Positions 55,835 through 64,000 of a DNA stretch of 64,000 nucleotides are shown here, piece after piece (position 1 is the first letter of the stretch; each line of letters starts with the position of its first letter). The notes beneath the pieces were generated by a model. The model saw only the letters and a program-made list of their open reading frames with translations, was not told the origin of the DNA and made no database searches. Made by a program: the position numbers and the translations under genes. The stretch spans positions 64,001-128,000 of the IMG/VR virus record IMGVR_UViG_3300031992_000029; one strand, written 5' to 3'. This stretch comes from a virus. Its lineage: Duplodnaviria; Caudoviricetes.

Positions 55835-56067
55835 CTCAGATCCTCTGCCTCAAAATCGTCTTCAGCTATAGGGGATAGCCAACTTTCACCATATGACCAA
55901 ACCTGACCAACCATTTCATATGCCTTTCCTTTACGATAAACCCTCGATATACACTGTATAGTTCTATCGTACCTATCCATATTCGAAACCCACGTCGGTT
56001 CGTCTGGGAAGTTTTTAACACCATTTTCAGGCTTATGAATGATTACCATATCTCCTACATTAAACAT
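55822..56067 (-). CDS. Array protein, SH3/KOW-like + acidic tail
   Basis: FNVGDMV...EDDFEAEDLRCLM; close paralog of 56055-56309. Confidence 0.7.
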   Translation of the reverse strand: MFNVGDMVIIHKPENGVKNFPDEPTWVSNMDRYDRTIQCISRVYRKGKAYEMVGQVWSYGESWLSPIAEDDFEAEDLRCLM

Positions 56068-56309
56068 GATATATCCTCCGTCTCAAATTCTTCCTCGGGT
56101 TCGGGTACGTGGGATAACCAGCTTGAGCCATAAGTCCATATCTGATTAGCCAGCTCTATCCATTTCCCATCGTTGTAGATATACGAGATGCGCTGTTCTG
56201 TTCCGTCGTATTTATCCATACTTGAAACCCACATCGGTTCGTCTGGGAAATTTCTAAAACCATGCTCGGGTTTATGAACGATTACTCTATCTCCTACATT
56301 AAATTCCAT
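56055..56309 (-). CDS. Array protein, SH3/KOW-like + acidic tail
   Basis: FNVGDRV...EEEFETEDISCLM. Confidence 0.7.
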   Translation of the reverse strand: MEFNVGDRVIVHKPEHGFRNFPDEPMWVSSMDKYDGTEQRISYIYNDGKWIELANQIWTYGSSWLSHVPEPEEEFETEDISCLM

Positions 56310-56530
56310 ATATCCTCCGTTGAGAATTCTTCATCCTCTTCGACATGAGATATCCAATCTGTAACAAAAAGTACTCCGTCGCATTCGTCGAGAGACACTA
56401 TGCCGGAGCTGTTAATGTCCTTGATCGTTGTGATCATTCCCAAATATTTATCCCTGGTTGACCACAAGTAATCATATGCTCCACTTCCATCAGGTCCAGT
56501 TATTTCAACGACGTCACCTACATCAAACAT
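56294..56530 (-). CDS. Array protein, SH3/KOW-like + acidic tail
   Basis: Start MFDVGDVV after GGAGG; ends DEEFSTEDIWNLM. Confidence 0.7.
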   Translation of the reverse strand: MFDVGDVVEITGPDGSGAYDYLWSTRDKYLGMITTIKDINSSGIVSLDECDGVLFVTDWISHVEEDEEFSTEDIWNLM

Positions 56531-56766
56531 AATATATCCTCCGTGTCGAAATATTCCTCCTCCTCTTCGTGAAGGAGTTCGATCCATCTTACGCTGAAGT
56601 ACCACGGGATACCTTCAAGATGGACAGTTTTCCCGCTTCCGCTTACGCTTGATATTTTGAATGTTTTGTTATCATACCTATCCATCGGGTTGACCCATCC
56701 TGGTTCATCATGTCTTATTGCCGAAGGCTTGTGCACAATAACAGTGTCTCCAGCTTTGTATTTCAC
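56518..56766 (-). CDS. First array protein, overlapping the RT stop codon
   Basis: YKAGDTV...EEYFDTEDILCLM; 4-nt overlap with RT. Confidence 0.7.
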   Translation of the reverse strand: MKYKAGDTVIVHKPSAIRHDEPGWVNPMDRYDNKTFKISSVSGSGKTVHLEGIPWYFSVRWIELLHEEEEEYFDTEDILCLM

Positions 56767-57944
56767 GACACAGACACACCACCTCTCAGATCGTTTTTGA
56801 TCTCAGATACGATATCCATGTTGAACTTCTTACTGAGATGTTCAACAAGTGCGCTGATAGACTCTCTCTCTATCATCATGTAGTAGCTACGATGACCTTC
56901 GAGAACCTGGACATCGTGGAAATCCCACTGGATTCCATTCCTTTTGTCCATTGCGTAGTTCGACAGCATTGCCGTGAACTGCTTTCTTCTCTTGTGTCCG
57001 ATAGTGATCTCGTTGTTTGCGTTAAGCATAACGCCGAGATTCCAATTAGAACCTGCGGAAGAACCGTAGCGTGTTTTCTTCGACTTGATCGTGAACGGTG
57101 CGTCGAAGCTGGAGAGTGTATCTACGATGAACGCCTCGGCTTCCTTGTAGTTGAAATCGTATCTACACGATACAAGAAAGTCGTCTGCGTACCTTGTGTA
57201 TACACAGTAATTTTCCACTTCGTTCCCATCTTTATCATGATATTTGAAGTTTCTGAACCCGTTGTAGAGTTTGAAGTCAACGGGTATCATAATAATGTTA
57301 GTGATAATGGGGCTGATTGGGGTTCCCTGAGGGAGTCCACCGTCAAGGAATGCCAGCTCAAGAGCCTTTTCAAGCTCCGCTCGCCCAACATCATCGAGAC
57401 AAACCTGACTGAATGGGAAAATCCACTGAAGCATATCCATAACGTACTTCAGTGTTGTGCTGCCAAAGAAGTTAGATAAATCAAACTTGGCAAACCATTT
57501 CGATCCATTCCTCTGGTGTCTTTTGATCGAGTCAATGGTTGACCTTTTCTTGATGTACGCAAATGCAGAAGTGTGATACAGGGCATGACAATCTTCCTCA
57601 AAGATTGCCTTCAGATTCCTGAGTGCCGCCTTAAGCTCCTCATTAGGAGCGTCGATCTTTCTGAGGCCACCTGACTTCTTAGGAATGTAGAACTCTGAAT
57701 ACAGTTCTTTTCTCGGAACCTTCCTGAGCTCCTCTGTCTGCTCATTGAACTGTTTCAGCTTATTTATGATGTTGTCGATATCGACGAGGCCCTGAAATTT
57801 TTCGCCGATATATTCCACTTCGTATGTTCTTGTGTTTGTCTCGTTCGAGACATACAGCGGAACCTTTGAATCATTTCCAAAAAGAAATTCCTCAAGTGTC
57901 ATCTGGTGGTATGCAGGTGACTGCGGTACAGTTACATAAAACAT
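56763..57944 (-). CDS. Retron-type reverse transcriptase
   Basis: IPKKSGGLR.I.AP, AFAY, D...H (region X-like), FDLSNFF, LPQGTPISP, YTRYADD, KT, NLG in place of VTG. Confidence 0.92.
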   Translation of the reverse strand: MFYVTVPQSPAYHQMTLEEFLFGNDSKVPLYVSNETNTRTYEVEYIGEKFQGLVDIDNIINKLKQFNEQTEELRKVPRKELYSEFYIPKKSGGLRKIDAPNEELKAALRNLKAIFEEDCHALYHTSAFAYIKKRSTIDSIKRHQRNGSKWFAKFDLSNFFGSTTLKYVMDMLQWIFPFSQVCLDDVGRAELEKALELAFLDGGLPQGTPISPIITNIIMIPVDFKLYNGFRNFKYHDKDGNEVENYCVYTRYADDFLVSCRYDFNYKEAEAFIVDTLSSFDAPFTIKSKKTRYGSSAGSNWNLGVMLNANNEITIGHKRRKQFTAMLSNYAMDKRNGIQWDFHDVQVLEGHRSYYMMIERESISALVEHLSKKFNMDIVSEIKNDLRGGVSVS

Positions 57945-57956
57945 CTTTTCGTCCTT

Positions 57957-58247
57957 TCGTATTCAACATACAGTTTCTGGGAGGCGCAGATCCTGGCGCC
58001 GGCCGTAACTTAAGCTCGCTGTGCTGGATGTAGTCGTCGATTGGATGTCCATCAAATATAGGAATGGTAGATATATTTGATATTTTCGTGGTTTGGAATT
58101 TATGGATGACGACTTCCCGAGGGCCGGCCATCCGGCGGAATCACTGGAGAGATGCATTGCCGCGTGGAGGTGGGTTCCTCTTTCCACACAAGGTGATACC
58201 GTCGTTTACAACTGACGGCACAGACAAATGTCTGTAATACAATACGA
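57957..58247 (-). ncRNA. Retron-like msr-msd RNA #6 (class A), directly upstream of the RT
   Basis: IR UCGUAUU/AAUACGA next to the RT RBS; G at 58240; ACAGAC/GUCUGU and CCGUC-AGUUGUAAAC-GACGG stem-loops. Confidence 0.85.
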
Positions 58248-58250
58248 TTC

Positions 58251-58279
58251 AAAAAGCCGGGCTAAATTAATAGCCCGGC
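58251..58279 (-). terminator. Intrinsic terminator immediately 5' of ncRNA #6
   Basis: GCCGGGCTA/TAGCCCGGC followed by TTTTT. Confidence 0.75.
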
Positions 58280-58522
58280 AACATCTGACCGTACCTGGTA
58301 CGCAGTGAGATTCAATCTTCCTCGAAAGACTGGAAAGAACAGGTATGACGCAAGCGCCATTCCCGCTGAAACCTGGTTTCTAACTCCTTATGCGTGTACG
58401 GTGCTGATATATATACCACGCCTGGTACGCAACCATAGGATATGCGTGTGTGGTCATAAACAAAAGTCGGTCTTCCCCTCAAGGAATACCTATAAAAACC
58501 AAATGAGGTTTTTGTTCAAACA

Positions 58523-59206
58523 TTAGAAACACATCAGATCGCCAGCGAACCCGTCGATCTGGAGGAACTTCCAGAGCTTCTGACCCTTAACCCAGTTGAT
58601 GTAGTTGTTCACGCCGAGTGCAGAGATAAGCCGAACTGTTGTGGCTACACCGAGTGTAATTCCGCAGGCGCTCACAGGAGTTTCAGCCGCCGCTTCCTCG
58701 TGTGTGAAAGCCATGGAAGCCTTGAGCGCTTCTTTCTGTTTCAGATCACTCCAATCAGCCGCATAGTGCTGGGCGGATGTGAGCAGGGTTCTGAAATCGA
58801 GCACCAGCTTTACGAACGGTGAGTTCCAGTGCTTGTCGACGATTTCATTTCTGAGCTCGATACTGTCTACTGCGAGTACGATGATGCCGGACATCATCTT
58901 TCCCTGCCATCCTTCGGGATGGAGCTTGATCTTATCTGCGATTGCGGGATTGATTGATACAAGGATGTCGCGAAGCGCTTCGACCTTGGGCATCCCGACC
59001 TGCTCCTGCGTGAACATCTGATTGACAATGTTATGTGCTTCAACATCGTCAAAGTCCCACAGCTGGAAGTTTTCCACGCCGCACCGTGCGAGGTTCTCTG
59101 CTACGGTTGATCCTACAGAACCACATCCTACGATGTGGATTGTAGACTTTTCTTCGTCAGGGTTGAAGAATTCATATGACTTTGACAGGTCCATTACGTT
59201 GCTCAT
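58523..59206 (-). CDS. ThiF/E1-like activating enzyme
   Basis: IVGCGSVGS, D.D.V..HN..NQ, K, AVDS, DFR, Cys in 'SACG'; no CxxC zinc pairs. Confidence 0.9.
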   Translation of the reverse strand: MSNVMDLSKSYEFFNPDEEKSTIHIVGCGSVGSTVAENLARCGVENFQLWDFDDVEAHNIVNQMFTQEQVGMPKVEALRDILVSINPAIADKIKLHPEGWQGKMMSGIIVLAVDSIELRNEIVDKHWNSPFVKLVLDFRTLLTSAQHYAADWSDLKQKEALKASMAFTHEEAAAETPVSACGITLGVATTVRLISALGVNNYINWVKGQKLWKFLQIDGFAGDLMCF

Positions 59207-59234
59207 TTTAAAGTTCCTCCTTATTATTTTTTAT

Positions 59235-59630
59235 TTATAATTTCTGTACGGCTAAAACAGACTTTCTCATATTGCCAATCATGTCTGCATGAAAAGACCT
59301 ATTAAACCCGAAATTATCTTCGATGAAGTCTTTTAACTCGTTTTTAAGCTCATAGAGAAGGTCAGAATCGTCTTCAAGTACGAAGATTTCACCTGACGGA
59401 TCACGATAGTAGTAGTCGAATCCGTCGTATTCCTCCCAATCGAGGAGGGTGAATTTAATAGTGCGCCAGTTGGAACACCCTTTCACAATATCGGAAAGGG
59501 TTTCCATAAGAATCTCATCTCTTGCGTCTCCGTCTAAGATGTAATCAGCAATGCTGTAACAGTCGTACATTTTTGCAACTTTGAGAAGTTCATCGACCGT
59601 ATAGATGCTATCAAATTCTTCTTTTGTCAT
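59235..59630 (-). CDS. Acidic hypothetical protein, paralog of 59641-60081
   Basis: MTKEEF..I.TV.EL...DARD.IL.E...W...DG.D.Y. Confidence 0.65.
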   Translation of the reverse strand: MTKEEFDSIYTVDELLKVAKMYDCYSIADYILDGDARDEILMETLSDIVKGCSNWRTIKFTLLDWEEYDGFDYYYRDPSGEIFVLEDDSDLLYELKNELKDFIEDNFGFNRSFHADMIGNMRKSVLAVQKL

Positions 59631-59640
59631 GTGATTTTCC

Positions 59641-60081
59641 TCAGATTACCTGGAACTCAGACACGAATTCTTTGAATTCGTCGTCCGTCCACTCATCCAT
59701 GGCCTCTTCGATCTCGACCTCTTCTACAAATTCTTCATCGAACTCTTCATCGTTCTCGAAGCATTCGTTTTCATCCATGAAGTCGTAGAGATCTTCCTTG
59801 AGGCTCTCGAACTCGTCATCTCCGTCTGTAATAGGACGGAAGTCACCCCAGTCGTCATAGACATACCAGTCGTATCCCCCGTCGTCTTCCCAGCCGTTCA
59901 GTATGCCGAGCATTTCTCTCCATGAGTAATCGCCCACACTGTCGACCATTCTTTCGTTAAGGATGTCATCTCTTGCGTCGGATGAGTAGATTTTTTCTTG
60001 TACATCATCACAACCCACGTCTATTGCCGTGTCTACCAGCTCTTCGACAGTTGTGATGTCATTAAATTCCTCTCTTGTCAT
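59641..60081 (-). CDS. Very acidic hypothetical protein
   Basis: RBS AAAGGAG; D/E-rich; paralog of its neighbour. Confidence 0.7.
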   Translation of the reverse strand: MTREEFNDITTVEELVDTAIDVGCDDVQEKIYSSDARDDILNERMVDSVGDYSWREMLGILNGWEDDGGYDWYVYDDWGDFRPITDGDDEFESLKEDLYDFMDENECFENDEEFDEEFVEEVEIEEAMDEWTDDEFKEFVSEFQVI

Positions 60082-60092
60082 TTGGTCTCCTT

Positions 60093-61145
60093 TCAATAAT
60101 CAAGGCCATATCTCATGAGGAGTTCATCGTTAGCATTCTCTTGTTCTGCGAGAACGCTATCGATGTACTCCTCCCAAGTTTCATAAGTATCGGCGTCGTT
60201 TGTTCCAACGACTGTTGTTTTTCCTTCGCTTATTTTTTTTTTATATCCGAATCTCTGACCCTGATCACCCTTTCCTGCCGGTGTAACACTTCCGGGTGCC
60301 GGTTTTCCGCCGTTTCCGCCGGTCGTCACTACTGCGGGAGTTGTGGTTACTTTACTGGTATTTGCGGGTGCACCGCCTCTCTGCTGATTTCCGCCGGAAT
60401 ATCCGCCCTGATATCCTGTGTACCCGGACGTTCCGCCGTAATCGTAGTAGCCATATCCGCCACTGTATCCGCTGTAAGCATATCCAGAACCGGTAGAGCC
60501 AGTATTCGTATAGACATGCTTTTTTACCTGATCGTCTGCCTTTGCGACGAAACCCTCAAGACCCTCGACTACAACGTCGATATCCTTGTTGTCAAAAGAA
60601 AGATTATCACGGAGGTCATAGATGATCCTCGTCATATCTCCTTTTTTATTGTGGATCGTGAAAATATAGAAGTCGTCCTGCGGAAGCTGCCCAAGGATGC
60701 GCCTGTATAACGTCTCGTCTGTTGTGCTGGGGCTTACACCCATATTGACGTGGGAATGGCACTGGGCGCGGATGGAATTGAATTCCTCATCCGTGTGTGC
60801 ATACAGCCATTTCGTGTATTCCTCCTGATCCGTGGTCACGGTTGCGCCGGTGACTTCCTGGGGATATACTTCCAGATCTTCGATCTTATATGTGTTTTCC
60901 TCACCATCAACACGGTGTGCGAATCCGTGCCATGCTACTTCGGAACTGAAGTGGTCTACAAGGACCTTCGTCTTCAGCCATGCCTTTGTGCTGTACACCA
61001 GCGTGGCCTTCTTATTTACAGTCCCGAAGTCGTGTGTGAACGTAAACTTACCATTGGCAAGTTTACTCGTTGTAAGTGCCTTCTTGAACTCCTCGATAAT
61101 GGAGTCCATCTGTGATCCGATGTCAACTTTGATGACTTTTGCCAT
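60093..61145 (-). CDS. JAB/MPN metalloprotease with G/Y-rich low-complexity tail
   Basis: SEVAW, YPQ, HSH.NM...PS..D JAMM motif. Confidence 0.85.
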   Translation of the reverse strand: MAKVIKVDIGSQMDSIIEEFKKALTTSKLANGKFTFTHDFGTVNKKATLVYSTKAWLKTKVLVDHFSSEVAWHGFAHRVDGEENTYKIEDLEVYPQEVTGATVTTDQEEYTKWLYAHTDEEFNSIRAQCHSHVNMGVSPSTTDETLYRRILGQLPQDDFYIFTIHNKKGDMTRIIYDLRDNLSFDNKDIDVVVEGLEGFVAKADDQVKKHVYTNTGSTGSGYAYSGYSGGYGYYDYGGTSGYTGYQGGYSGGNQQRGGAPANTSKVTTTPAVVTTGGNGGKPAPGSVTPAGKGDQGQRFGYKKKISEGKTTVVGTNDADTYETWEEYIDSVLAEQENANDELLMRYGLDY

Positions 61146-62611
61146 TACTTATTTTCCTCCTTTTTAAGCCACTCGATTGCACCGTTGGGGTCAACGACCG
61201 TTCCGTCAGGCAGCTCGAAAGCTCTGACGTTAACATCACGTCTTCCCGCGATACAGCTCATGAAATACTCCATTACTGTTCCGTCGGAGAAGTTGAGCGA
61301 TCCGCAGGATGCGATGCACTGTGTGATTGCCCCTACGTTATCGCCTCTCGACATGTAATCTGTCATGATGCGTTCGTAGCTGCCAATACAGTTATACTGA
61401 TTTATATGCGGGTTAGGCATGTACGTCTCTTTGATTCCCTCAAGGAACGACGCTCCGCCACGCGGCCTGACACGGCTGTTAAGATCAATCTGATACTCAG
61501 CGCAGAATCTTAACCGGATCTTCCTGTCGATGAATACGGCTCTCATAAGAGCTTCAATATCCTCAGCAGAAATCCAGTCCTCTGTGCTCCTGTATACAAA
61601 TGATCTCTTGTTTTCGATTACCTTTTCTGCGAGATCTTCGTCGAATAAATCGCAGTACGCCGTAACCTGAACGGAGATGCTGTTTCCGTCCACCCTGTTA
61701 AGGTGAAGGGCGTTCTTATTCGCAAGGAAGAAGTCCATGATGCCACTTCCCGTCTCGCCAGATGCGATCTTAACCTGAAGACCTTCATACTGGATTTCCA
61801 TCTTTCTGATGTCGTTCAGGATCTGGGCGATAGATTCCTGATACCGCTGGATATCGTTCCTTTTACTCTGGATGGAGTTTCTCACATTCTCAACAGTCTC
61901 TCTGTCGAGGCGTGTCTCGATGTCGCCGAGCAGTTTCTTGACTCTTGCTGTTTCAAGGTCGAGCTTTGCGGCGAACTTTCTGCAGGACTCAAGGTAGGCT
62001 GCGGGATCTTTCACACGAAGTCCTTCGATCATCTCCATCTCTTCAGGAGAGATTCCATCCTCTTTGTTGAAATACCACGGCAGATAGGCAAGGATGCCAC
62101 ACTGCATATAGTGGTATCGCTGCATCGTGAGGTTCTTTACATACAGCATTACGTTGTGGTTCTCGGTATCACAGATGCAGATGCATTTGAAGCCTGTGAT
62201 CTTCTGGAAGAACGCCGTTACCCTGGGCAGCTTTTCCCACTTGTCGTACTCAGGAAGAAGTTTCTCTTCCACCCATGCAAGCCATGCATCGTTGTCCTCC
62301 TCATTGGAGGCGTCGAATACATGCAGGCCGATGTGTGTTACGCTGGGGCCGCCCCAGTATGTAGGGTAAAATTCTGCTGTCTCTGCCAGAGTGCTGAGAT
62401 CGTACCTCTCAAGATAACTCTTCCTCTCGTTGGAAGAAGTGATATTGAGGACGACCCTTTCTCCTTCCTTCATTCTGGGGTAAACAATTCCTCTCAACGT
62501 AGAGAGGAATGTCAGGTCTCCGAGGTACGCGTTACCTTCAACAACTCCGTTGAAGAAGTCATTTGCGCCCTCCGACACTAACGCTGTATTTCTGATACTG
62601 TTTCTAAACAT
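61145..62611 (-). CDS. Prokaryotic E2-like conjugating protein with coiled coil
   Basis: C-terminal 'PNPHI....CIG' E2-type motif; sits between Ubl and JAB genes. Confidence 0.6.
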   Translation of the reverse strand: MFRNSIRNTALVSEGANDFFNGVVEGNAYLGDLTFLSTLRGIVYPRMKEGERVVLNITSSNERKSYLERYDLSTLAETAEFYPTYWGGPSVTHIGLHVFDASNEEDNDAWLAWVEEKLLPEYDKWEKLPRVTAFFQKITGFKCICICDTENHNVMLYVKNLTMQRYHYMQCGILAYLPWYFNKEDGISPEEMEMIEGLRVKDPAAYLESCRKFAAKLDLETARVKKLLGDIETRLDRETVENVRNSIQSKRNDIQRYQESIAQILNDIRKMEIQYEGLQVKIASGETGSGIMDFFLANKNALHLNRVDGNSISVQVTAYCDLFDEDLAEKVIENKRSFVYRSTEDWISAEDIEALMRAVFIDRKIRLRFCAEYQIDLNSRVRPRGGASFLEGIKETYMPNPHINQYNCIGSYERIMTDYMSRGDNVGAITQCIASCGSLNFSDGTVMEYFMSCIAGRRDVNVRAFELPDGTVVDPNGAIEWLKKEENK

Positions 62612-62641
62612 TTTCCCACTCCTTTCATTTTTTTTGTGGAT

Positions 62642-62712
62642 TCAAGACGGCAGGAGTCGAACCCGCTACATACACGGTTTGACCGGTTGCTCTGCCGTTG
62701 AGCTACGTCTTG
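62642..62712 (-). ncRNA. tRNA-like RNA with shortened or irregular anticodon arm
   Basis: Acceptor CAAGACG/CGTCTTG, D arm GCTC/GAGC, T loop TTCGACT; anticodon region CGG-TCAAA-CCG. Confidence 0.6.
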
Positions 62713-62714
62713 AT

Positions 62715-62750
62715 AAAAACGCCCCGCGAGGATAATTCCTGACGGGGCGT
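62715..62750 (-). terminator. Intrinsic terminator after the stand-alone Ubl gene
   Basis: ACGCCCCG...CGGGGCGT followed by T run. Confidence 0.55.
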
Positions 62751-62800
62751 ATGTATTCTCATTATTCAGTTTTTATTTGCCCTTTATTGGGCGATCATTT

Positions 62801-63034
62801 TCAGGCCGCTGCGTTGTCTGCCTTCTGCACGGACAGAAGGTAGCAAGACTCTGCGATGCCGAATTCCGCGAAAGTCTTGTCAAGAGCGCCGGGCTGAAGG
62901 GTGACGCCATCCAGCATCATGGCACCATGAGCATAATCGATACCATTGGTTTCAAGCGCCTGGCGGAGTGTAGTGCTGCTGTCAACGATAACATTTTTTC
63001 TTGTGGTGTTGTTTCCGAGGGTAACTCTGATCAT
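62801..63034 (-). CDS. Stand-alone ubiquitin-like (beta-grasp) protein
   Basis: 77 aa; strand-strand-helix 'TTLRQALE', 'LDG..L', 'DKTFAEFGI', C-terminal 'YLLSVQKADNAAA'. Confidence 0.75.
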   Translation of the reverse strand: MIRVTLGNNTTRKNVIVDSSTTLRQALETNGIDYAHGAMMLDGVTLQPGALDKTFAEFGIAESCYLLSVQKADNAAA

Positions 63035-63131
63035 ACTTTTACTTCCTTTCATTCAAAAGGAGCGGGTATTCCCCGCTCCACAACTGTATCTATATCGGAG
63101 CGAGCTATAAACTAACTCCGGTATTTACTTC

Positions 63132-63749
63132 TTAAGCGAGGGTAATCGCACCCTCGATCTCAGCCTTCTCTTTGCGTACCTCTTCAAGAACAGCCGGGAA
63201 GGTCGCCTCGATCTTATTGATGTTCAGAACGAGCCTGCCGTATGTGTCGGACAGATATGCCTTGATATCATCAACGTCGCTGGGAATGGAGACGGTAATG
63301 GTCGCCTTGCCGGAGCCGTCATGAGCCTCAGCGCCGAACTCAGCGCCTACCTTGTTGATGCTTCCCATTCCTGTTCCGAGCCCGATTGCGTAGACGAATT
63401 CCTTGCCGTCTTCACCGCCGAAGAGCTGCAGGGCATCGGGGCGATACTTTTTGATCATTTCGATGTCGGCCTTCTTTACGCCGGAGACGATTACTGCGGC
63501 CTGGCCTGCCGTCTTGATCTCCGCGGCGTTGTCTGCCTTCTGAACACTCAGAAGGTAGCAAGATTCCGCGATACCGAACTCAGCGAAGGTCTTATCGAGA
63601 GCGCCCGCCTGCAGGGTCACACCATCCAGCATCATGGCACCATGTGTGTAGTCCACACCGTTGGCCTCAAGTGCCTGACGAAGTGTGGTAGCGCTGTCGA
63701 CGATGACGTTTTTCCTCATTGTGTTGTTTCCGATAGTAACCTTAATCAT
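63132..63749 (-). CDS. Ubl domain fused to a ~130-aa C-terminal domain
   Basis: N-terminal ~76 aa nearly identical to 62801-63034. Confidence 0.75.
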   Translation of the reverse strand: MIKVTIGNNTMRKNVIVDSATTLRQALEANGVDYTHGAMMLDGVTLQAGALDKTFAEFGIAESCYLLSVQKADNAAEIKTAGQAAVIVSGVKKADIEMIKKYRPDALQLFGGEDGKEFVYAIGLGTGMGSINKVGAEFGAEAHDGSGKATITVSIPSDVDDIKAYLSDTYGRLVLNINKIEATFPAVLEEVRKEKAEIEGAITLA

Positions 63750-63875
63750 TTTTACTCCTTTCATTCAAAGGAGCGGGGTATTTCCCCGCTCCAAAAACAT
63801 TGTTATATCAACTGAGTGCCATAAGCCTTGGGCTACCGATTAAGCCGGGGTTCTCTGTGGACTCGTGTTGATCTC

Positions 63876-64000
63876 TTATGCGAGGGTGATTGCGCCCTCG
63901 ATCTCGGCCTTCTCCTTGCGGACTTCCTCAAGTACTGCCGGGAAGGTAGCCTCGATCTTGTTGACGTTCAGGACAGACCTGCCGTACTGGTCAGCGAGAT
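63876..64000 (-). CDS. 3' end of a second copy of the Ubl-fusion C-terminal domain (partial)
   Basis: Encodes '...YGRSVLNVNKIEATFPAVLEEVRKEKAEIEGAITLA*', matching 63132-63749. Confidence 0.8.
   Translation of the reverse strand, partial: LADQYGRSVLNVNKIEATFPAVLEEVRKEKAEIEGAITLA

What the first reader, a model, noticed from the sequence alone, without database searches (positions are those of the whole stretch)
58523..64000. Complete phage-encoded ubiquitin-like conjugation operon (Ubl, E2-like, JAB, E1)
Seen: co-oriented Ubl-fusion, stand-alone Ubl, a 488-aa protein with a PNPH..CIG E2-type motif, a JAMM protease and a ThiF/E1 with a candidate catalytic Cys, directly upstream of the RT locus. 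Established: bacterial E1-E2-JAB-Ubl systems (Bil, CBASS Cap2/Cap3) are host anti-phage conjugation machines. Inference: here the phage owns the machinery, possibly to tag host or defence proteins or to modify its own. The adjacent tail-bearing array could provide substrate adaptors, since no E3 is visible.
Basis: partly seen in the sequence, partly recalled or inferred. Interest (0 to 1): 0.85.

Follow-up and report, generated by a model that had tools for sequence, protein, structure and literature searches.

The report
Phage-owned ubiquitin-like tagging cassette
A 137-kb temperate gut/rumen phage, like hundreds of uncultured relatives, carries its own ubiquitin-style protein-tagging kit (tag, activating enzyme, carrier-enzyme candidate, trimming protease) always joined to a retron-type reverse transcriptase, whereas the characterised bacterial kits of this kind are defences against phages.

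Summary
On the minus strand lie an 83-aa small protein, two fusions of it to a 130-aa domain I call X, a 488-aa protein, a JAMM protease, two acidic proteins and a 227-aa ThiF-type E1. A retron-type RT follows.

The E1 and JAB calls are solid. The 488-aa protein has no sequence match to any E2. Its C-terminal domain folds confidently, and about 45 of its 50 nearest solved folds are UBC/RWD/UEV proteins, including bacterial BilB and Cap2, though at low Z (3-5.3). An invariant His402/Cys408 pair sits where an E2 active site would.

The tag ends in an invariant K-A-D-N-A, not Gly-Gly. I could not fold it; a ThiS profile comparison gives only modest support.

New here:
- The block X > Ubl > 488-aa > JAB > E1 > RT keeps this order in essentially every related contig that is not cut short.
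- The only fused form of the tag is Ubl-X.
- The gene order matches Bil.

Most likely this is a working Bil-like conjugation pathway owned by phages, with X as first candidate target. Its biological role and its link to the RT are untested.

This scan reported the same block on other phage genomes (e1-5885001, e1-5767630). I found no paper describing it.

The parts
63876..64000 (-). 3' end of a second Ubl-X fusion gene (205 aa). It runs off the window to 64493; a free X gene (about 132-147 aa) follows at window 64770-65213.
   Evidence: L002 7876-8493 and 8770-9213; window = L002 + 56000. It is 87% identical to the 210-aa fusion.
63132..63764 (-). Ubl-X fusion (210 aa). The N-terminal tag domain ends K-A-D-N-A-A and is joined directly to domain X.
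   Evidence: Ubl-X proteins of about 205 aa are nearly the only longer form of the tag in 5.8 billion proteins: 99 clusters, all but two of 201-211 aa.
63059..63079 (-). Terminator-like hairpin (8 pairs, 7 of them G-C, then a T run) between the fusion gene and the free Ubl gene; a possible attenuator.
   Evidence: This is a consensus match only.
62801..63052 (-). Free ubiquitin-like tag (83-aa frame, probably 77 aa from Met7). It has the invariant C-terminal K-A-D-N-A followed by two extra Ala.
   Evidence: Asn80 and Ala81 are invariant and most homologues stop right after Ala81. The family has 1324 clusters. hhalign to ThiS gives P 3.7e-4 against 0.02-0.85 for eight controls. Fold not modelled.
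61145..62611 (-). 488-aa E2-type candidate: an N-terminal alpha/beta domain (about residues 20-196), a single 53-residue helix (231-283), and a C-terminal UBC/RWD-like domain (286-488) with invariant His402 and Cys408.
   Evidence: AF2 models with pLDDT 93.8 (whole) and 95.9 (C-domain). VIA-align top 50 is about 45 UBC/RWD/UEV entries, Z 3.0-5.3. The N-domain resembles MoaB/MogA/CinA at Z about 5. Invariant residues. The family has 1626 clusters at 50% identity.
60093..61145 (-). JAMM/MPN+ metalloprotease (residues 1-200) with a Gly/Tyr/Ser/Thr-rich low-complexity tail. Its start overlaps the stop of the 488-aa gene (TAATG).
   Evidence: Invariant E69, H130, S131, H132, S140 and D143. The only PDB sequence matches are Rpn11, E 0.017, aligned across the motif. 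Prok-JAB is hit in 13 of 32 members, all below the cut-off. Junction and tail.
59641..60096 (-). Acidic protein (151-aa frame, pI about 4.05; the real start is probably the ATG behind an AGGAG), a paralogue of the next gene.
   Evidence: A homologue is found in 39 of 71 related loci, in some between JAB and E1 and in others several kb downstream of the RT. Function unknown.
59235..59630 (-). Acidic protein (131 aa, pI about 4.2), a paralogue of the previous gene.
58523..59206 (-). Single-domain ThiF/MoeB-type E1 adenylating enzyme (227 aa) with invariant Cys181.
   Evidence: Pfam ThiF 2e-23. UBA5, Uba1 and MoeB at about 1e-15 by profile. Invariant G27-C-G-x-x-G32, D51, D53, K74, D114 and C181; Asn62 stands in place of the usual Arg.
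58256..58279 (-). Strong terminator-like hairpin (9 pairs, 7 of them G-C, then T5) after E1 and before the retron RNA and RT.
   Evidence: An RNA-library contig at 57970-58217 begins just downstream.
56763..57944 (-). Retron-type reverse transcriptase, the invariable downstream neighbour of the cassette (context; studied by another report).
   Evidence: PADLOC RT_II-A 3.6e-42 and RT_I-A 3.5e-34. Present downstream of E1 in 70 of 71 and in 83 of 93 loci.

Best explanation
The cassette is a self-contained, Bil-like ubiquitin-type conjugation pathway that belongs to a clade of temperate phages of gut Clostridia.

Proposed steps (all inferred):
1. The JAMM protease trims tag precursors. These are the two Ubl-X fusions and the free Ubl with its extra Ala residues. 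Trimming exposes the invariant end K-A-D-N-A.
2. The ThiF-type E1 adenylates the carboxylate of that terminal Ala and probably holds it as a thioester on Cys181.
3. The tag passes to Cys408 in the UBC-like C-terminal domain of the 488-aa protein. The long helix and N-terminal alpha/beta domain of that protein would supply oligomerisation and substrate choice, acting as an E2/E3 hybrid.
4. The tag is ligated to an amino group of a target. The first candidate is protein X, which is always encoded beside the tag, is its only fusion partner, and keeps a Lys at its third residue.

Shown: the parts, their catalytic residues, their order, and their strict co-inheritance with a retron-type RT.

Inferred: every chemical step, the target, and the role. 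I read the role as a phage-side conflict function that works together with the retron. I slightly favour use by the phage during infection (host take-over or counter-defence) over protection of the lysogen.
For: - E1: Pfam ThiF well above cut-off. Profile matches to UBA5, Uba1 and MoeB. Nucleotide loop, Asp, Lys and Cys181 invariant.
- JAB: full JAMM motif invariant, and Rpn11 the only PDB match.
- Tag: a small protein whose last residues are invariant and sit at the stop codon in most homologues. This is the signature of a C-terminus that is activated.
- A C-terminal Ala is a proven E1 substrate in CBASS: E. cloacae CdnD ends ...G-R-F-A and is adenylated by Cap2 (bioRxiv 10.1101/2022.03.31.486616).
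- Tag fold: hhalign to ThiS gives P 3.7e-4, fifty-fold below the best of eight controls.
- 488-aa protein: a high-confidence C-domain model. About 45 of its 50 best matches among 48,161 solved folds are UBC/RWD/UEV, including BilB (8tyz_C, Z 3.9) and the Cap2 E2 domain (7to3_A, Z 3.2), with only 116 chains at Z of 2 or more. Invariant His402 and Cys408 lie between strand 4 and the next long helix.
- Gene order Ubl-E2-JAB-E1 equals BilABCD (PMC10557695).
- Co-inheritance of all parts down to 22% identity of the 488-aa protein.
- Ubl-X fusions: 99 clusters, the only recurrent fused form.
- The cassette heads a long minus-strand arm of replication genes: RNR, DNA polymerase, helicase, primase.
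Against: - No E2 family matches the 488-aa protein by sequence in Pfam, PADLOC, NCBIfam or PDB. Foldseek found nothing in PDB.
- The UBC-type matches have low Z, and the motif reads N-P-H, not H-P-N.
- The tag's fold was not modelled, and it matches no ThiS or Prok_Ub model.
- The E1 lacks the Arg that contacts ATP in MoeB and UBA5; Asn62 is invariant instead. It also has no separate catalytic-Cys domain.
- No conjugate, thioester or target has been observed.
- Expression evidence is one 221-nt contig at depth 3 in an RNA library.
Confidence: 0.62

Rival explanations
1. The cassette plus retron is prophage-borne cargo that protects the lysogen. It would be a new retron type whose effector module is a Ubl-conjugation set, tagging proteins of superinfecting phages as Bil does. 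The chemistry is the same as in the best explanation, but the direction of the conflict is reversed.
For: - The phage is temperate: a tyrosine integrase at 1794-2996.
- Retrons and Bil are both defence systems (PMC10557695).
- The region is a compositional island, 46-53% G+C against about 38% elsewhere.
- A 94%-complete phage with a DNA polymerase 50% identical to this one has neither the E1 nor the 488-aa protein.
Against: - The block was found only in phage contigs and in 14 metagenome-assembled genomes out of 185,579 species genomes, never in an isolate chromosome.
- It is inherited with conserved order across deep divergence, unlike the patchy spread of defence islands.
- None of the 13 retron types in Mestre et al. 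2020 mentions ThiF, ubiquitin or JAB (PMC7736814).
Confidence: 0.3
2. The tag is not ligated to a protein. The E1 and the 488-aa protein attach it to a nucleic acid or nucleotide made by the neighbouring retron RT (the msDNA, its RNA, or the RT itself), or they make a C-terminal peptidyl-nucleotide in the manner of MccB.
For: - The RT follows the E1 in essentially every locus that is not cut short.
- MccB and TcdA, E1-family enzymes that act on a peptide C-terminus or on tRNA, are among the E1's PDB matches.
- The N-domain of the 488-aa protein resembles the nucleotide-handling MoaB/MogA fold at Z about 5.
- The altered ATP-site residue Asn62.
Against: - A terminator-like hairpin separates the E1 from the retron unit.
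- Conserved order in phages can be shared descent alone.
- The UBC-like domain, the JAB and the Ubl-X fusions are all explained by protein conjugation.
- No direct evidence.
Confidence: 0.1
3. It is a sulfur-carrier pathway of the ThiS/MoaD/TtuB kind, without an E2. The E1 makes a tag thiocarboxylate for a thiolated cofactor or nucleoside. The 488-aa protein is a sulfur relay or an unrelated protein.
For: - The E1's best NCBIfam models are small ThiF types, all below cut-off.
- Weak ThiS-like profile signal in the tag and a ThiS lead from the Atlas.
- Three conserved Cys in the 488-aa protein.
- MogA-like N-domain.
Against: - The tag ends in Ala, not Gly-Gly, and matches no ThiS model.
- Pfam scans of the cassette and its upstream neighbours found no rhodanese, PP-loop ATPase, ThiG/ThiH or MoaE.
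- The C-domain's fold neighbours are UBC/RWD proteins.
- Ubl-X fusions have no place in a sulfur relay.
Confidence: 0.07
4. The tag is only a cleavable N-terminal chaperone or solubility domain for X, as proposed for lambda tail-assembly protein I or as in ubiquitin-ribosomal protein fusions. JAB releases X, and no conjugation happens.
For: - Ubl-X is the only fusion form.
- Iyer et al. 2006 proposed JAB processing of a phage Ubl fusion without any E1 (PMC1779556).
Against: - In over 90% of family members the tag and X are separate genes, with X upstream.
- An E1 and an E2-like protein are always present.
- The tag's own end is invariant even when nothing is fused to it.
Confidence: 0.06

Closest known systems
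BilABCD (types I and II; operon '6C/6d' of Iyer et al. 2006; 'ISG15-like' defence system)
   Same: - Four parts: Ubl, E2, JAB protease, E1.
- The same gene order, Ubl-E2-DUB-E1 (PMC10557695).
- The tag is made as a precursor that the protease must trim.
- The E2 has a Cys with a nearby conserved His.
- BilB (8tyz_C) is among the fold neighbours of the C-domain.
   Different: - Owned by phages, not by bacterial defence islands.
- The tag ends in Ala after Asp-Asn, not in a conserved Gly.
- The E1 is a single 227-aa ThiF domain, not a multidomain E1.
- The E2 candidate is 488 aa, with an extra N-domain and a long helix, and shows no sequence similarity to BilB.
- It has an obligatory partner X and a retron RT.
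Type II CBASS Cap2 (E2-E1) and Cap3 (JAB)
   Same: - The E1 domain is the best PADLOC match of this E1 (7e-19, N-terminal 75 residues).
- A C-terminal Ala can be the activated residue, as in CdnD ...G-R-F-A.
- A JAB protease antagonises or processes the conjugate.
- The Cap2 E2 domain is among the fold neighbours.
   Different: - No CD-NTase and no E2-E1 fusion.
- The substrate is a small dedicated protein.
- Phage-borne.
Bub pathways (Ye et al. 2024, PMC11601596)
   Same: A diverged bacterial E1/E2/Ubl set in which the Ubl is cut out of a fusion precursor.
   Different: - Bub works through oxyester intermediates and a serine protease.
- Here the candidate catalytic residues are Cys and the protease is a JAMM enzyme.
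Lambdoid and T1-like tail-assembly protein I plus protein K (Iyer et al. 2006, PMC1779556)
   Same: A phage-encoded Ubl domain fused to a C-terminal domain, with a JAB protease nearby.
   Different: - That system has no E1 and no E2, sits in the tail module, and its Ubl ends in Gly.
- This cassette sits with the early and replication genes.
Retrons (RT + msr-msd RNA + effector; 13 types, Mestre et al. 2020, PMC7736814)
   Same: A retron-type RT with an upstream small RNA seen in an RNA library, immediately beside a conserved protein module.
   Different: No described retron type has a ThiF, JAB or Ubl effector.

Membership tests
ThiF/MoeB/E1 adenylation domain (PF00899) | Match to the family model above its curated cut-off | tested here: met
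   83.2 bits against a cut-off of 28.1, covering residues 20-219.
ThiF/MoeB/E1 adenylation domain (PF00899) | Gly-rich nucleotide loop, ribose/Mg Asp residues and the phosphate-binding Lys | tested here: met
   G27-C-G-x-x-G32, D51, D53, K74 and D114 are invariant in 32 homologues.
ThiF/MoeB/E1 adenylation domain (PF00899) | Arg of the N-x-x-R-Q/L motif that contacts ATP phosphates (role from my own knowledge of MoeB) | tested here: not met
   It aligns to UBA5 N-M-N-R but reads N-I-V-N-Q; Asn62 is invariant.
ThiF/MoeB/E1 adenylation domain (PF00899) | Catalytic Cys in the crossover region that forms the thioester | tested here: inconclusive
   Cys181 is invariant. It lies a few residues before the helix that HMMER aligns to the UBA5 helix. 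By my recollection that UBA5 helix follows its catalytic Cys. Chemistry not testable here.
JAMM/MPN+ metalloproteases | E ... H-x-H-x7-S-x2-D zinc site | tested here: met
   E69, H130, H132, S140 and D143 are invariant and align to the Rpn11 motif.
JAMM/MPN+ metalloproteases | Match to Pfam JAB or Prok-JAB above the cut-off | tested here: not met
   14.5-15.6 bits against a cut-off of 25; 13 of 32 members hit Prok-JAB, best E 0.005.
UBC/E2 superfamily | UBC/RWD-like fold | tested here: inconclusive
   C-domain model has pLDDT 95.9. About 45 of the top 50 of 48,161 chains are UBC/RWD/UEV, with 87-134 residues aligned, but Z is only 3.0-5.3. Foldseek found none.
UBC/E2 superfamily | Conserved Cys after strand 4, preceded by an H-P-N-type loop | tested here: inconclusive
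   Cys408 and His402 are invariant; P399, N400 and G410 are at least 90% conserved. They lie between strand 4 and the next long helix. The order is N-P-H, not H-P-N, and no residue-level superposition was available.
UBC/E2 superfamily | Sequence match to UQ_con or a Prok-E2 family | tested here: not met
   No Pfam, PADLOC, NCBIfam or PDB sequence match for the protein or its 64-member profile.
BilABCD | Ubl, E2, JAB and E1 in the order Ubl-E2-DUB-E1 | tested here: met
   for this locus; for Bil. It holds if the E2 call is accepted.
BilABCD | Ubl with a conserved C-terminal Gly exposed by the DUB | tested here: not met
   The invariant end is D-N-A; there is no Gly in the last 15 residues.
BilABCD | Sequence homology of the parts to Bil proteins | not tested
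   The copy of PADLOC used gave only Cap2-type E1-E2 hits for the E1 and no Bil model hit. I made no direct comparison with Bil sequences.
BilABCD | Encoded in bacterial defence islands | tested here: not met
   368 IMG/VR phage contigs carry this E1. Only 14 of 185,579 species genomes hold the 488-aa protein, all metagenome-assembled.
ThiS/MoaD sulfur carriers (PF02597) | Match to the ThiS model | tested here: not met
   No match in the whole phage genome even at E 10, while 13 of 14 control genomes match. Prok_Ub likewise gave none.
ThiS/MoaD sulfur carriers (PF02597) | Beta-grasp fold | tested here: inconclusive
   hhalign to 12 ThiS sequences: probability 36%, P 3.7e-4 over 37 columns; eight controls gave 0.02-0.85. 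Atlas lead to a viral cluster in which 10% carry ThiS.
ThiS/MoaD sulfur carriers (PF02597) | C-terminal Gly-Gly | tested here: not met
Retron tripartite systems | Retron-type RT next to a conserved accessory module | tested here: met
   RT_II-A 3.6e-42; adjacency conserved.
Retron tripartite systems | Accessory module belongs to one of the 13 described effector classes | tested here: not met
   The words ThiF, ubiquitin, JAB and E1-like do not occur in Mestre et al. 2020.

The most novel reading that the evidence does not exclude
The ubiquitin-like cassette and the retron are one machine. Either the reverse transcriptase's DNA/RNA product controls the conjugation reaction, or it is the molecule the tag is attached to. 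That would give a phage-owned hybrid of reverse transcription and ubiquitin-type ligation with no described counterpart.
Probability: 0.25. Interest if true: 0.92.

Novelty: new variant of a known kind. Interest (0 to 1): 0.78.

Why it matters
The characterised bacterial E1-E2-JAB-Ubl systems I compared (Bil, CBASS Cap2/Cap3) defend cells against phages, and Bub is suggested to from its genomic context. Here the same kind of chemistry appears as a deeply conserved possession of a large and abundant clade of gut and rumen phages. The counts are 368 IMG/VR contigs with this E1, 1626 clusters of the E2-like protein and 1324 clusters of the tag.

If it conjugates, several things follow:
- Phages also use ubiquitin-type tagging.
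- The tag's end can be Asp-Asn-Ala instead of Gly-Gly.
- An E2 can be built into a 488-aa protein with its own extra domains.
- There is a ready candidate substrate, X.

The fixed pairing with a retron-type RT links two fields that have had no contact, ubiquitin-like ligation and reverse transcription. The whole set is small enough to rebuild in E. coli.

Tried and rejected
**DNA and sequence searches that found nothing**
- Megablast of 8 kb and 20 kb against GenBank phages: no match.
- tblastn of the 488-aa protein against plasmids: none. Against phages: one unannotated faecal phage at 22% identity, which then proved to hold the whole block.
- Profile searches of the 488-aa family, the tag and X against PDB sequences: only coiled-coil noise or nothing.
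- Pfam on X: nothing.
- ThiS and Prok_Ub models over the whole phage genome: no match.

**Fold searches**
- Foldseek against PDB with the whole model and with the C-domain: nothing at E of 0.001 or better.
- VIA-align on the whole model was swamped by the 53-residue helix, so I re-folded the C-domain alone.
- BFVD gave one uncharacterised gut-phage protein.
- ESM Atlas holds no structure for the tag or the fusion.

**Ideas tested and dropped**
- Internal duplication of the 488-aa protein (N-domain against C-domain): rejected, hhalign probability 0.3%.
- That the neighbouring microproteins are alternative tags: rejected, because their shared tails do not resemble K-A-D-N-A.

**Limits and weak results**
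- RNA evidence is thin. The runs are stored as contigs with small shares of the stretch. Only a 221-nt contig across the 488-aa/JAB junction and the retron RNA region appear in the one true RNA run.

Full report
**Setting.** The window is bases 64001-128000 of a 137,481-bp IMG/VR virus record that CheckV rates complete. Almost all its genes lie on the minus strand. They include an anaerobic ribonucleotide reductase, DNA polymerase, DnaB-type helicase, primase, an endolysin-like protein and a tyrosine integrase. The finding therefore sits at the head of a long arm of replication and accessory genes in a temperate phage, not in the virion module. G+C rises from about 38% over most of the window to 46-53% from about 58,000 to the end of the genome. 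I fetched the 9.5 kb beyond the window as L002 (window coordinate = L002 coordinate + 56000).

**The observation.** Read in the direction of transcription, the minus-strand frames are:
- a free 'X' gene (window 64770-65213);
- a Ubl-X fusion (63876-64493);
- a second Ubl-X fusion (63132-63764);
- a free Ubl (62801-63052);
- a 488-aa protein (61145-62611);
- a 350-aa protein (60093-61145);
- two acidic paralogues (59641-60096 and 59235-59630);
- a 227-aa protein (58523-59206);
- after a 578-bp gap, the RT (56763-57944).

The stop of the 488-aa gene overlaps the start of the next gene (TAATG). The three tag copies are 87-93% identical to each other.

**E1.** The 227-aa protein matches Pfam ThiF at 83 bits over nearly its whole length. 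By profile it matches UBA5, Uba1, MoeB, TcdA, MccB, ThiF and Cap2. Across 32 homologues the nucleotide loop, D51, D53, K74, D114 and Cys181 are invariant. Two departures stand out. It is a bare ThiF domain with no separate Cys domain. And the Arg that aligns to UBA5's N-M-N-R is an invariant Asn. Cys181 lies just before the helix that HMMER pairs with a UBA5 helix. By my own recollection that UBA5 helix follows its catalytic Cys, so this placement is a lead, not a result.

**JAB.** The 350-aa protein scores below the cut-off on Prok-JAB. However, E69, H130, S131, H132, S140 and D143 are invariant in 32 homologues. The only PDB sequences its profile finds are Rpn11, aligned through exactly these residues (E 0.017). 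Residues 206-300 are a Gly/Tyr/Thr/Ser-rich low-complexity tail.

**The tag.** The family has 1324 clusters at 90% identity, typically 75 aa, none with a Pfam domain or a name. Its most telling feature is its end. Asn80 and Ala81 are invariant, Lys77 and Asp79 nearly so. In most homologues the stop codon follows Ala81; a few carry one or two further residues (A, AA, R, GQ). A small protein whose last residues are fixed at the stop codon, encoded beside an E1 and a JAB, is what a C-terminally activated modifier looks like. Ala in place of Gly has a precedent: E. cloacae CdnD ends ...G-R-F-A and was seen adenylated in the Cap2 active site.

It matches no ThiS or Prok_Ub model and no PDB sequence. 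A profile-profile comparison with 12 ThiS sequences that I fetched from Clostridia genomes gave probability 36% and P 3.7e-4 over the central 37 columns. Eight controls (reversed profiles and the other cassette families) gave 0.02-0.85. The Atlas gave a lead to a viral cluster in which 10% of members carry ThiS. I rate the beta-grasp fold as likely but unproven.

**The 488-aa protein.** It has no hit in Pfam, PHROGs, NCBIfam or PDB sequences. PADLOC gave only two weak hits, which I treat as coiled-coil noise. Yet it belongs to a family of 1626 clusters at 50% identity, almost all 470-500 aa and aligned end to end. With 64 homologues AlphaFold2 gave pLDDT 93.8. The model has an N-terminal alpha/beta domain, one 53-residue helix (231-283) and a C-terminal domain. 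Invariant residues are D32, H167, Q170, W179, H402 and C408; C145, C370, P399, N400 and G410 are at least 90% conserved.

Foldseek found nothing in PDB, and the helix swamped VIA-align. I therefore folded residues 286-488 alone (pLDDT 95.9, pTM 0.90). Foldseek again found nothing. VIA-align against 48,161 representative chains returned only 116 chains at Z of 2 or more. By my reading of the entry titles, about 45 of the best 50 are UBC, RWD or UEV domains:
- RWD domains of Knl1, RNF25 and GCN2, and by my recollection listerin;
- many E2s (UBE2F, UBC12, Ubc9, UbcH5, UbcH7, Ubc13, UFC1);
- FANCL;
- the bacterial BilB (8tyz_C: Z 3.9, rmsd 3.5 Å, 87 residues);
- the E2 domain of Cap2 (7to3_A: Z 3.2).

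The best Z is 5.3. By the tool's own caution these Z values are too low to prove a fold. The near-exclusive composition of the list is the argument.

The secondary-structure order also fits UBC topology: helix, two strands, a helical insert, two strands, a loop carrying P-N-P-H, Cys408, then three helices. That is the UBC order with an insert, and the Cys sits where an E2's would. The N-domain resembles MoaB/MogA/CinA at Z about 5 over 120-130 residues, which I treat as a lead only. N- and C-domains are not detectable duplicates.

**Comparative genomics.** A pattern search seeded with the 488-aa protein gave 71 IMG/VR loci. In 70 of them the same strand carries X, Ubl, the 488-aa protein, JAB, E1 and RT in that order. 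The acidic protein was found in 39 and an upstream acidic 237-aa protein in 45. The one GenBank phage with a match (MT835544.1, human faeces, 22% identity) has the same six genes in the same order.

Seeding with the E1 instead found 368 contigs. Of the 93 further loci examined (79 new viral loci and 14 from metagenome-assembled genomes), 83 have the complete order. Most of the other ten are visibly cut by a contig end; L081 (no RT found) and L153 (short 488-aa match, no X or Ubl found) remain unexplained. Among one genome for each of 185,579 prokaryote species, only 14 hold the 488-aa protein. All 14 are metagenome-assembled, nearly all labelled Clostridia, and the source names that can be read point to animal guts. 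One 94%-complete phage whose DNA polymerase is 50% identical lacks both the E1 and the 488-aa protein.

**Protein X.** X is a protein of about 132 aa with no recognisable family. It starts M-A-K in nearly all homologues. It is always encoded just upstream of the tag. A search for longer relatives of the tag found 99 clusters, all but two of 201-211 aa, that is, Ubl-X. The fusion order (tag first) is the reverse of the gene order, so it is not simple read-through. It resembles a hard-wired linear conjugate, or a precursor like the ubiquitin-ribosomal protein fusions. This makes X the first candidate for the target or an obligatory partner.

**Transcription.** Two strong terminator-like hairpins lie on the coding strand. 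One is between the fusion gene and the free tag (63059-63079). The other is after E1 (58256-58279), just before the small RNA region. In a sheep-gut RNA library, identical contigs cover 57970-58217 (depth 15-26) and 60991-61211 across the 488-aa/JAB junction (depth 3). This is weak evidence of expression. It suggests the cassette and the retron may be separate transcripts.

**Interpretation.** The parts, their catalytic residues and their order (the same as BilABCD) fit a working conjugation pathway: JAB trimming to K-A-D-N-A, adenylation by E1, transfer to Cys408, and ligation, with X as first candidate target. All the chemistry is inferred.

The direction of the conflict is open. Exclusive phage ownership, deep vertical conservation and the position among early genes lean toward use by the phage itself. 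The integrase, the compositional island, the defence pedigree of both retrons and Bil, and one relative without the block lean toward lysogen protection. The fixed pairing with the RT is as conserved as the pairing of the enzymes with each other, but shared descent could explain it.

**Prior knowledge.** I found no paper describing this block. The retron classification of Mestre et al. 2020 mentions no ThiF, JAB or ubiquitin partner. Earlier agents of this scan reported the same block on two other phage genomes (e1-5885001, e1-5767630). My results, obtained independently on this genome, agree with theirs. They add X, the invariant tag end, the fold evidence for the E2-like domain, the altered E1 residue and the terminator after E1.

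Noticed in passing
window 60093-60530: The JAB protein's C-terminal half is a Gly/Tyr/Thr/Ser-rich low-complexity stretch: 26 Gly, 12 Thr, 11 Tyr and 8 Ser in residues 206-300. This composition is like that of self-associating or phase-separating proteins. The region is not conserved in sequence among homologues.
   Followed up: partly
window 59235-60096: Two paralogous, very acidic proteins (pI about 4.1-4.2; 55 Asp+Glu in 151 residues) lie between JAB and E1. A homologue was found in 39 of 71 related loci, in some between JAB and E1 and in others several kb downstream of the RT. They could be DNA mimics or scaffolds. No family match.
   Followed up: partly
L002 9463-10176 (window 65463-66176): An acidic 237-aa protein (pI 4.2) lies just upstream of X and is conserved at that place in 45 of 71 related loci. 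No family match.
   Followed up: partly
window 56000-64000 and L002 1-17481: G+C is 43-53% from the RT to the right end of the genome, against about 37-42% over the other 120 kb. The tagging cassette lies in a compositional island.
   Followed up: no
L002 11318-11914 and 11911-12240: A 198-aa protein whose last 70 or so residues read like another small beta-rich ubiquitin-like domain. Next to it is a 109-aa protein ending in an acidic tail similar to the shared tail of the microprotein array downstream of the RT. Neither was tested.
   Followed up: no
window 57970-58217: Contigs of a sheep-gut RNA library match this E1-RT spacer exactly, at depth 15-26. It lies right after the terminator-like hairpin at 58256-58279 and fits the retron RNA reported by another agent.
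   Followed up: partly
window 61145-62611, residues 20-196 of the protein: The N-terminal domain of the 488-aa protein consistently aligns to MoaB/MogA/Cnx1G/gephyrin-G/CinA folds: Z 4.4-5.2, 118-131 residues, rmsd 3.3-3.8 Å. That fold handles molybdopterin and nucleotides. It may be only a generic alpha/beta similarity.
   Followed up: partly
L184 (IMGVR_UViG_3300037512_001928, 107 kb): A 94%-complete phage whose DNA polymerase is 50% identical to this phage's has no match to the E1 or the 488-aa protein, so the block is not universal among polymerase relatives.
   Followed up: partly
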